DNA of 64,000 nucleotides from the human T2T-CHM13v2.0 reference genome, Homo sapiens: the NCBI GenBank assembly GCA_009914755.4, contig CP068257.2, positions 42,752,001 to 42,816,000 on the forward strand. The letters run 5' to 3'. Positions within the stretch are counted from its first letter, which is position 1; each line of letters opens with the position of its first letter. Both the position numbers and the translations under genes were made by a program. This document shows, piece after piece, positions 6,683 to 7,227 of the stretch. The notes below the pieces were generated by a model. That model was not told the origin of the DNA. It saw only the letters and a list, made by a program, of their open reading frames with translations, and did no database searches.

Positions 6683-7190
6683 CCGTGATGATAGTGATGA
6701 TAGTGATAGTGATGATAGTGACAGTGATGATAGTGACGGTGATAGTGATGATAGTGACAGTGACTGTGATTGTGATGATGATAGTGGATAGTGATATGAC
6801 AGCGATGGTGACAGCAAGGATAGTGATGATAGTGACAGTGATAGTGATGATAGTGACAGTGACTGTGATGATAGTGGATAGTGATATGACAGTGATGGTG
6901 ACAGCAAGGGTAGTGATGATAGTGACAGTGATAGTGATGATAGTGACAGTGACTGTGATGATAGTGGATAGTGATATGACAGTGATGGTGACAGCAAGGA
7001 TAGTGATGATAGTGACAGTGATAGTGATGATAGTGACAGTGACTGTGATGATAGTGGATAGTGATATGACAGTGATGGTGACAGCAAGGGTAGTGATGAT
7101 AGTGACAGTGATAGTGATGATAGTGACAGTGACTGTGATGATGATAGTGGATAGTGATGTGACAGTGACAGTGAGGATAGTAAGAGTGAC
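6683..7190. repeat. GAT/AGT-rich minisatellite with a roughly 120-bp higher-order unit (about 4 copies), built from 'gatagtgatgatagtgacagtga' subunits
   Basis: Near-identical 120-bp blocks starting at 6781, 6901, 7021 and 7141. Ends 38 nt upstream of exon 17. Confidence 0.9.
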
Positions 7191-7227
7191 AACCTGTCTG
7201 CCTTCCTACCGCCCCTCTTCCCAGTAG

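What the first reader, a model, noticed from the sequence alone, without database searches (positions are those of the whole stretch)
6683..7227. GAT/AGT minisatellite ending 38 nt upstream of the exon 17 tandem acceptor, preceded by a 1-kb (CA/TG)n-(CATG)n block
The intron 16 3' end is a roughly 1-kb Z-DNA-prone alternating purine-pyrimidine repeat (5543-6552) followed by a roughly 0.5-kb 120-bp-unit minisatellite. The minisatellite stops 38 nt before the CAGTAG acceptor, whose AG choice decides between full-length TRPM2 and TRPM2-S. This is the second case in this window of a VNTR placed against a functionally important 3' splice site.
Basis: seen in the sequence. Interest (0 to 1): 0.5.

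Follow-up and report, generated by a model that had tools for sequence, protein, structure and literature searches.

The report
Intronic minisatellite beside TRPM2 exon 17 acceptor
A real but probably harmless 0.5-kb tandem repeat lies in the intron just upstream of the TRPM2 splice site that makes either the full-length channel or the truncated TRPM2-S form, and nothing testable here suggests that the repeat controls that choice.

Summary
The window holds the 3' half of human TRPM2, exons 16-32. The repeat, the CA-rich block and the CAGTAG acceptor are all present at the stated positions. The repeat unit is 90 bp with a 180-bp higher order, not 120 bp. The TAG is in frame, so use of the upstream AG gives an immediate stop. 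This matches the published description of TRPM2-S.

A regulatory link between repeat and acceptor is not supported:
- A quarter of the intronic sequence here is tandem array. An array ending within 38 nt of some acceptor arises in 13-15% of shuffles.
- The amplified core ends at 7174. That is upstream of the AG-free zone (7187-7222) and of both candidate branch points (A7189, A7208), so copy-number change would not alter branch-to-AG spacing.
- The array RNA is unstructured.
- Published work places NAGNAG choice in the few nucleotides around the motif.

Nine contigs from unidentified non-human vertebrates have a single CAG acceptor and lack this array; the seven with enough upstream sequence also lack the CA block. 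Intron 16 is 485-754 nt where measurable, against 3244 nt in human. A GTGA(C/T) motif 35-39 nt upstream of exon 17 is invariant in human and five mammal-like contigs.

Most likely this is a lineage-specific, neutral minisatellite whose 3' limit is set by selection on the branch-site, pyrimidine-tract and AG module. Interest is low.

The parts
3831..3983 (+). 3' part of TRPM2 exon 16 (start not determined). It ends ...GAG ATG CGG CAG|gtacag, on a complete codon.
   Evidence: tblastn of a rodent-like TRPM2 fragment; sequence read
3984..7227 (+). Intron 16, 3244 nt. The CA block and the array together make up 47% of it.
5543..6552 (+). Imperfect (CA)n/(CATG)n block. It is CA-rich on the sense strand and 92% of its steps alternate purine and pyrimidine.
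   Evidence: TRF rows 5544-6519; composition and alternation
6683..6722 (+). Leading short-period GAT/AGT segment, equivalent to a partial unit.
6723..7174 (+). Amplified minisatellite core of 90-nt units (about 4.8 copies, 180-nt higher order). It is 6.5% C, GC skew +0.69, with 61 AG dinucleotides (composition figures are for the whole 6683-7189 array).
7175..7189 (+). GATAGTAAGAGTGA. This is array-like in composition but homologous to single-copy sequence in other mammals. It holds the conserved GTGA(C) motif and branch-point candidate A7189, 35 nt from the proximal AG and 38 nt from the distal AG.
   Evidence: alignment A3; distances; sequences
7190..7222 (+). Pyrimidine-rich spacer (82% Y) inside the AG-exclusion zone 7187-7222. 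It contains the second branch-point candidate A7208 (CCTACC), 16 nt from the proximal AG and 19 nt from the distal AG.
   Evidence: compare CCCCTAAC at the same place in L017 and L019
7222..7224 (+). Proximal CAG acceptor. Using it keeps TAG in the mRNA, giving an in-frame stop after Q846 (TRPM2-S).
   Evidence: literature
7225..7227 (+). TAG, which is both the distal acceptor for full-length TRPM2 and the stop codon of the short form.
7228..7346 (+). TRPM2 exon 17 (residues 847-886, LFYDPDECGL...AGLTCR).
21769..22907 (+). The other array near an acceptor: a 40-mer in 29 copies, ending 70 nt before exon 21 (22978-23159).

Best explanation
This is an ordinary, lineage-specific intronic minisatellite in a tandem-repeat-rich stretch of human TRPM2.

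Origin (inferred). The array grew by tandem amplification of GTGA(C/T)-rich sequence just upstream of the 3' splice-site module of exon 17. Related mammals carry only a two-copy 9-mer proto-repeat there (GGTGAYGAT GGTGAC).

Why it stops where it does (inferred). The array stops where purifying selection begins. That region comprises the conserved GTGAC, which is a branch-point candidate, then the pyrimidine tract and the AGs.

The acceptor (shown by sequence, supported by the literature). CAGTAG is a derived NAGNAG acceptor. The distal AG gives full-length TRPM2. The proximal AG retains an in-frame TAG and gives TRPM2-S. That mRNA should also be a target of nonsense-mediated decay, because 15 exon junctions lie downstream of the stop.

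Consequence (inferred). Copy-number change would occur within the near-identical core units. It would leave both branch-point candidates, the pyrimidine tract and the AG spacing untouched. The array most likely has little or no effect on which AG is used.
For: - The array is real and recent. Units u2 and u4 are identical and u3 differs at 1 of 90 positions.
- 25% of the intronic bases in this part of the gene are arrays, and the adjacency is reproduced in 13-15% of shuffles.
- VNTRs are strongly enriched within 5 Mb of chromosome ends (PMC7608644). That TRPM2 lies about 2 Mb from the 21q end is my own knowledge.
- The AG-exclusion zone is 7187-7222. The only TNA candidate inside it is A7189, and A7208 is the other candidate. 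Both lie downstream of the TRF core end at 7174.
- GTGA is the only contiguous invariant intronic block in human plus five mammal-like contigs, 35-39 nt from exon 17.
- Nine non-human vertebrate contigs (L001, L017, L019, L021, L023, L024, L026-L028) have a single CAG|CTC acceptor and no GAT/AGT array; the seven longer than L026/L028 upstream were also checked for a CA block and have none. Intron 16 is 485 nt in L001 and 754 nt in L017.
- Seventeen further genomic ORFs read CAG (Q) straight into L[FL]YDP with no stop.
- The array RNA folds no better than shuffles (z = +2.1).
- NAGNAG outcome is governed mainly by the two N positions and the immediately neighbouring nucleotides.
Against: - No primate or human-population sequence could be retrieved. 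The age of the array and its polymorphism are therefore unknown.
- The branch point is predicted, not mapped.
- Two arrays within 70 nt of acceptors in one window is nominally unusual (P = 0.03, post hoc).
- BPS-to-AG distance and the BPS-to-NAGNAG region are reported to shift NAGNAG ratios. An effect through alternative branch sites inside the array cannot be excluded.
- Another vertebrate (L025) has an independent 17-nt-unit array, each unit holding GGTGAC, that abuts the same acceptor. This hints that amplification here may not be purely random.
- The array carries many GAYGAY (20) and UAG (34) motifs that could bind splicing factors.
Confidence: 0.6

Rival explanations
1. One reading: array length or motif content tunes the choice between the two AGs, or the efficiency of exon 17 splicing. 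It would act as a multivalent intronic binding platform (for example GAYGAY or UAG motifs) or by offering alternative branch sites. TRPM2-L/S dosage would then be a VNTR-dependent trait.
For: - The array lies within 40-55 nt of the acceptor.
- It holds 22 GTGAC, 33 GTGAT, 20 GAYGAY and 34 UAG motifs.
- Precedents exist for repeats that alter nearby splicing: ABCA7, and CFTR TG and NARS2.
- BPS-to-AG distance can shift tandem-acceptor use.
Against: - The core is upstream of the AG-exclusion zone, and the array is full of AGs (61). Branch sites inside it would meet other AGs first.
- NAGNAG determinants are highly local.
- There is no RNA structure.
- No TRPM2 entry appears in the VNTR expression catalogues whose supplements are held, and there is no literature link.
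- The placement is compatible with chance.
Confidence: 0.12
2. Amplification of the branch-site-bearing segment is itself favoured or mutationally recurrent at this acceptor. Duplicated GTGAC units would give redundant or distant branch points, which could stabilise or regulate recognition of a weak 3' splice site.
For: - GTGA(C/T) is conserved 35-39 nt upstream in six mammalian sequences.
- L017, L019 and L021 carry a two-copy 9-mer proto-repeat at this position.
- L025 has an independent array of at least 6.4 units of 17 nt (CCCGCGCCCCGGTGAC). It is entirely AG-free and ends 12 nt before exon 17.
Against: - Only two lineages show arrays, and the species are unidentified.
- The human array is AG-rich, so its internal GTGAC copies are poorly placed to act as branch points.
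- Most sampled species manage with a single copy.
Confidence: 0.08
3. The DNA, rather than the RNA, matters. The 1-kb alternating purine-pyrimidine block (Z-DNA-prone) and the strongly G-over-C-skewed array (R-loop-prone) would slow RNA polymerase just before exon 17 and alter splice-site choice kinetically.
For: - The block is 92% alternating, with runs up to 100 nt.
- The array has GC skew +0.69.
Against: - Two AGs 3 nt apart are transcribed essentially together, so elongation rate gives no window of opportunity between them.
- The array has only two GGG runs.
- There is no in vivo evidence, and similar tracts are common in this locus.
Confidence: 0.04

Closest known systems
NAGNAG tandem acceptors, including the ~2% that insert an in-frame stop
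   Same: The CAGTAG motif has both N positions in the permissive set (C, T). The two AGs are 3 nt apart. The 3-nt insert is TAG in phase 0, which gives a stop.
   Different: The annotated productive form uses the distal, nominally weaker TAG. The motif is absent from every non-human vertebrate sequence recovered, so it is a derived feature.
ABCA7 intron 18 VNTR (25-bp unit; De Roeck 2018, PMC5954066)
   Same: Both are intronic minisatellites next to a splice site, about 0.5-0.6 kb in the reference, in a gene near a chromosome end. The isoforms involved reduce functional protein.
   Different: The ABCA7 units include the exon 18 donor GT itself. Alleles range from 0.3 to 10.7 kb, and length correlates with exon 19 skipping. 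Here the units contain no used splice signal, no polymorphism data exist, and the event is a 3-nt acceptor shift.
CFTR intron 8 (TG)m(T)n and the NARS2 GTTTTTT repeat (spl-TRs; PMC10078293)
   Same: Both are repeats close to a 3' splice site whose length alters its use.
   Different: Those repeats lie inside the branch-point-to-AG interval or in the pyrimidine tract, or bind TDP-43. The TRPM2 core lies upstream of that interval.
Subtelomeric GC-rich VNTR clusters (PMC7608644)
   Same: There is a dense set of long-unit intronic arrays in a gene near a chromosome end. Twelve arrays of 200 bp or more occupy 25% of the intronic bases.
   Different: This array is only 42% G+C and C-poor, unlike the >60% GC class highlighted there.

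Membership tests
Minisatellite / VNTR | Head-to-tail copies of a 10-100 bp unit | tested here: met
   90-nt unit, 4.8 copies, 94% matches. Units u2 and u4 are identical.
Minisatellite / VNTR | Copy number varies among individuals | not testable with these tools
   No human or primate contigs could be retrieved. Held catalogue supplements do not mention TRPM2.
NAGNAG tandem acceptor | NAGNAG motif at the intron-exon boundary with both N = A, C or T | tested here: met
   CAGTAG at 7222-7227, directly before exon 17.
NAGNAG tandem acceptor | Both AGs used in transcripts | not testable with these tools
   Only a literature statement is available: a TAG stop at the exon 16/17 junction in the short isoform (PMC5942353). 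The original paper is not held.
NAGNAG tandem acceptor | The 3-nt insert is in frame (here a stop codon) | tested here: met
   Exon 16 ends on a full codon at 3983. Exon 17 starts with codon CTC at 7228. TAG is at 7225-7227.
Splicing-associated tandem repeat (spl-TR, ABCA7 / CFTR / NARS2 type) | The repeat contains a used splice signal or lies between the branch point and the 3' splice site | tested here: not met
   The core ends at 7174. The AG-exclusion zone is 7187-7222. Branch candidates A7189 and A7208 are both downstream of the core. The branch point is predicted, not mapped.
Splicing-associated tandem repeat (spl-TR, ABCA7 / CFTR / NARS2 type) | Repeat length correlates with isoform ratio | not testable with these tools
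   This needs genotypes plus RNA-seq. The spl-TR catalogue supplement is not held.
Z-DNA-prone alternating purine-pyrimidine tract | Long uninterrupted purine/pyrimidine alternation | tested here: met
   92% alternating steps. Runs of 100, 87 and 71 nt. 875 of 1010 bases lie in runs of 12 or more.
Z-DNA-prone alternating purine-pyrimidine tract | Adopts the Z conformation in cells | not testable with these tools
   Only sequence propensity is available.

The most novel reading that the evidence does not exclude
The conserved GTGAC at the 3' edge of the array is the exon 17 branch point. The human array would then be a tandem amplification of that branch-site element. Array alleles would shift branch-site use or recruit splicing factors, and so set the ratio of productive TRPM2 to the TAG-terminated TRPM2-S/NMD form. 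Human TRPM2 dosage would be a VNTR-tuned trait resting on a lineage-specific NAGNAG. An independent array at the same acceptor in another vertebrate (L025) would then reflect recurrent use of the same trick.
Probability: 0.07. Interest if true: 0.55.

Novelty: new member of a known kind. Interest (0 to 1): 0.2.

Why it matters
TRPM2 is an oxidative-stress-gated calcium channel, and TRPM2-S is described as a dominant-negative inhibitor of it. A common length polymorphism that set their ratio would be a plausible modifier of ischaemic, inflammatory and neuropsychiatric phenotypes.

The evidence here argues that the repeat is a bystander. The modest gains are these:
- The repeat anatomy is corrected.
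- The TAG tandem acceptor is absent from every non-human vertebrate sequence sampled.
- The array abuts, but does not invade, a conserved GTGAC-pyrimidine-AG module.

Together these give a concrete and cheap test: junction counts against long-read array genotype.

Tried and rejected
- I searched the protein database with the 207-aa ORF that runs through the array, hoping for human or primate alleles. Nothing was found.
- An exact 19-mer of exon 17 scanned against JGI metagenome contigs gave six unrelated, bacteria-like hits only.
- Exact look-ups of two versions of the human intron 17 ORF gave nothing on record.
- blastn of the L001 intron 16 against the human intron gave no significant similarity. 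I therefore dropped an eyeballed homology of the upstream flank. A MAFFT alignment of flanks gave only about 46% identity, and I claim homology only for the GTGA block and GTAAGAGTGAC.
- Structured RNA is rejected, because the fold is weaker than shuffles.
- A known RNA family in the finding is rejected, because Rfam has no hit there.
- A coding function for the array ORF is rejected. The ORF is open only because the unit is a multiple of 3 nt, it is intronic, and it is absent in other species.
- Literature searches for TRPM2 with VNTR, minisatellite or NAGNAG found nothing relevant.
- VNTR catalogue supplements have no TRPM2 entry or are not held.
- The original TRPM2-S paper (Zhang 2003) is not held.
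- Residue count: by the 1503-aa PDB chain, exon 17 starts at residue 847, so the short form would end at Q846. My recollection that the literature says 845 residues differs by one and was not resolved.

Full report
**What the window is.** Translating 7228-7347 gives LFYDPDECGL...AGLTCR. This is 100% identical to human TRPM2 residues 847-886 in solved structures (6MIX and others). A recalled TRPM2 C-terminal sequence, used only as a guide, places 16 exons on the + strand. Junctions were refined with GT/AG and reading-frame constraints. They run from 7228-7346 to 50163-50288, the last ending at the stop codon, which fits the numbering 17-32. Exon 16 ends at 3983 (...GAG ATG CGG CAG|gtacag). Intron 16 is therefore 3984-7227, or 3244 nt.

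**Checking the observation.** Tandem Repeats Finder reports an array at 6713/6723-7168/7174 with period 90 (4.8 copies, 94% matches, score 704). It also reports period 180 (2.4 copies, score 785) and a 21-nt sub-period.
- The copies are spaced 90 nt apart: anchor motifs recur at 6810, 6900, 6990 and 7080.
- Units 6823-6912 and 7003-7092 are identical. Unit 6913-7002 differs from them at one position, which creates the 180-nt alternation.
- The stated 120-bp unit is therefore wrong. The ~0.5-kb size and the GAT/AGT motif content are right.
- The upstream block 5543-6552 is an imperfect (CA)n/(CATG)n tract. Of its steps, 92% alternate purine and pyrimidine, against 43% window-wide, with perfect runs up to 100 nt.
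- The acceptor reads CCCAGTAG|CTC. The AGs lie at 7223-7224 and 7226-7227, and array-like sequence ends at 7189, which is 38 nt before the exon.

**Does the acceptor decide between TRPM2 and TRPM2-S?** Exon 16 ends on a complete codon and exon 17 begins with a complete codon. Use of the proximal AG would therefore insert TAG as an in-frame stop directly after Q846. A review states that the short TRPM2 form, comprising the N-terminus plus the first two transmembrane segments, results from alternative splicing that places a TAG stop at the exon 16/17 junction (PMC5942353). Such an mRNA has 15 exon junctions downstream of the stop. By the established rules of nonsense-mediated decay it should be a target, so its steady-state level may understate how often the proximal AG is used (inference).

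**Is the placement more than chance?** In the TRPM2 part of the window, twelve arrays of 200 bp or more cover 11.1 kb of 44.3 kb of intron, or 25%.
- When arrays are re-placed at random, within their own introns or across all introns, at least one ends within 38 nt of an acceptor in 13-15% of trials.
- Two or more end within 70 nt of acceptors in 3% of trials. The figure is 12% if donor sites are counted too.
- The second case is the 40-mer array 21769-22907, which ends 70 nt before exon 21.
- These tests are post hoc.
- VNTRs are known to be strongly enriched within 5 Mb of chromosome ends (PMC7608644). From my own knowledge, TRPM2 lies about 2 Mb from the end of 21q.

**Anatomy of the 3' splice-site region.** The array sense strand is 6.5% C and contains 61 AG dinucleotides. 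The last AG before the acceptor is at 7185-7186, so the AG-exclusion zone is 7187-7222.
- Inside this zone the only U-n-A branch candidate is A7189 (GAGUGACA). It lies 35 nt from the proximal AG and 38 nt from the distal AG.
- A weaker candidate is A7208 (CCUACC), at 16 and 19 nt.
- The remaining 33 nt are 82% pyrimidine.
- Both candidates lie downstream of the end of the amplified core at 7174.
- The array RNA has no unusual structure. Its minimum free energy is -118.4 kcal/mol against a shuffle mean of -130.2 (z = +2.1).
- Rfam finds nothing in the finding's region.

**Comparative evidence.** Human and primate sequence could not be reached. Genomic ORFs that contain exon 17 could be reached, however, from Logan and ENA assemblies of unidentified non-human vertebrates.
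- Seventeen of the 20 ORFs retrieved read CAG (Q) straight into L[FL]YDP with no stop; the other three start inside exon 17.
- The DNA of nine contigs shows a single CAG|CTC acceptor (L001, L017, L019, L021, L023, L024, L026-L028).
- None of these nine has a GAT/AGT array. No CA block was seen in the seven contigs checked for repeats or read over at least 0.5 kb upstream (L001, L017, L019, L021, L023, L024, L027); L026 and L028 were seen only over their last 200 nt.
- Where both exons are present, intron 16 is 485 nt (L001) and 754 nt (L017), against 3244 nt in human.
- The CA block, the array and the TAG are therefore all derived on the lineage leading to human. How recently cannot be said.
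- In an alignment of human with five mammal-like contigs, the only contiguous invariant intronic block is GTGA, which in human is 7186-7189. It sits 35-39 nt upstream of exon 17 in every sequence.
- Human GTAAGAGTGAC matches ATAAGAGTGAC in L023. The last ~15 nt of the apparent array are thus ancestral single-copy sequence.
- L017, L019 and L021 carry a two-copy 9-mer (GGTGAYGAT GGTGAC) at this position. This is a plausible seed for amplification (inference).
- Flank homology further upstream is weak at about 46%, and I do not rely on it.

**Mechanism.** Published analyses find that the outcome at NAGNAG acceptors is set mainly by the two N nucleotides and the immediately neighbouring nucleotides. 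About 2% of NAGNAG cases introduce a stop (PMC2699507). A stochastic competition model explains most such variation (PMC1449888). Branch-site-to-AG distance can shift the ratio (PMC2875228).

In TRPM2, unequal exchange would be expected among the near-identical core units. That would add or remove 90 or 180 nt upstream of both branch candidates and leave this geometry unchanged. The best-supported reading is therefore a neutral, lineage-specific minisatellite. Its 3' boundary reflects selection on the conserved GTGAC, pyrimidine-tract and AG module, and does not reflect a function of the repeat itself.

Known repeats that do affect splicing differ in position:
- ABCA7: the VNTR includes the exon 18 donor, and its length tracks exon 19 skipping.
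- NARS2: the repeat lies between the branch site and the 3' splice site.

In each case the repeat contains or separates core splice signals. The TRPM2 core does neither.

**What keeps the alternative alive.**
- The array carries many GAYGAY (20) and UAG (34) motifs and 55 GTGAY motifs.
- Two arrays abut acceptors in this window.
- One other vertebrate contig (L025) has an independent AG-free array of at least 6.4 units of 17 nt. Each unit contains GGTGAC, and the array ends 12 nt before exon 17.
- Polymorphism and isoform ratios could not be examined.
- No literature or held catalogue connects a TRPM2 repeat with splicing.

**Verdict.** The identification of TRPM2 and TRPM2-S is sound. The proposed functional coupling is unsupported and, on anatomical grounds, unlikely. 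It remains cheaply testable with long-read genotypes and junction counts. This is an ordinary intronic minisatellite next to an already known tandem acceptor, and interest is low.

Noticed in passing
window 45592-45652 and 47506-47581 (+): Rfam RF00285 snoZ6 (C/D snoRNA, 91-nt model) hits twice. Model positions 1-48 match the last 47 nt of TRPM2 exon 29, and positions ~49-91 match the first 44 nt of exon 30 (47 + 44 = 91). The family consensus therefore reads like the spliced exon 29/30 junction of TRPM2 mRNA (...LVVKLPLSEHWALPGG|SREPGEMLPRKLKR). This suggests that the family seed is an mRNA fragment or a processed piece of this mRNA.
   Followed up: partly
L025 1-118 (Logan SRR28250145): In an unidentified vertebrate, an independent tandem array directly abuts the exon 17 acceptor. 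It has a 17-nt unit (CCCGCGCCCCGGTGAC) in at least 6.4 copies, is cut by the contig end, and is entirely AG-free.
   Followed up: partly
window 6604-7227 (+): A 207-aa ORF stays open through the whole array, in the same frame as exon 17, and stops exactly at the TAG of CAGTAG. This is probably a by-product of a unit length divisible by 3. It has no homologue in the protein database.
   Followed up: partly
window 9220-12208: About 3 kb of (CCTC)n, 762 copies at 86% matches, in intron 19. This is a very long sense-strand polypyrimidine tract.
   Followed up: no
window 14508-16149: A 41-nt unit in 41 copies, a minisatellite in intron 19.
   Followed up: no
window 21769-22907: A 40-nt unit in 29 copies, ending 70 nt upstream of the exon 21 acceptor at 22978.
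   Followed up: partly
window 24567-25157 and 27468-28650: Two further GGTGAT/TGATGG-type arrays in intron 22. They have the same strand polarity and the same 3-nt-phased motif family as the intron 16 array.
   Followed up: no
window 40397-40471: A short interstitial telomere-like (TAACCC)n tract in intron 27.
   Followed up: no
L017 9411-9482 and L021 3465-3506: A small 13-nt repeat (GGGAGGCAGGTGC, 3-6 copies) occurs in L017 and in L021; in L017 it lies within intron 16 (position in L021 not checked). It has no counterpart noted in the human intron.
   Followed up: no
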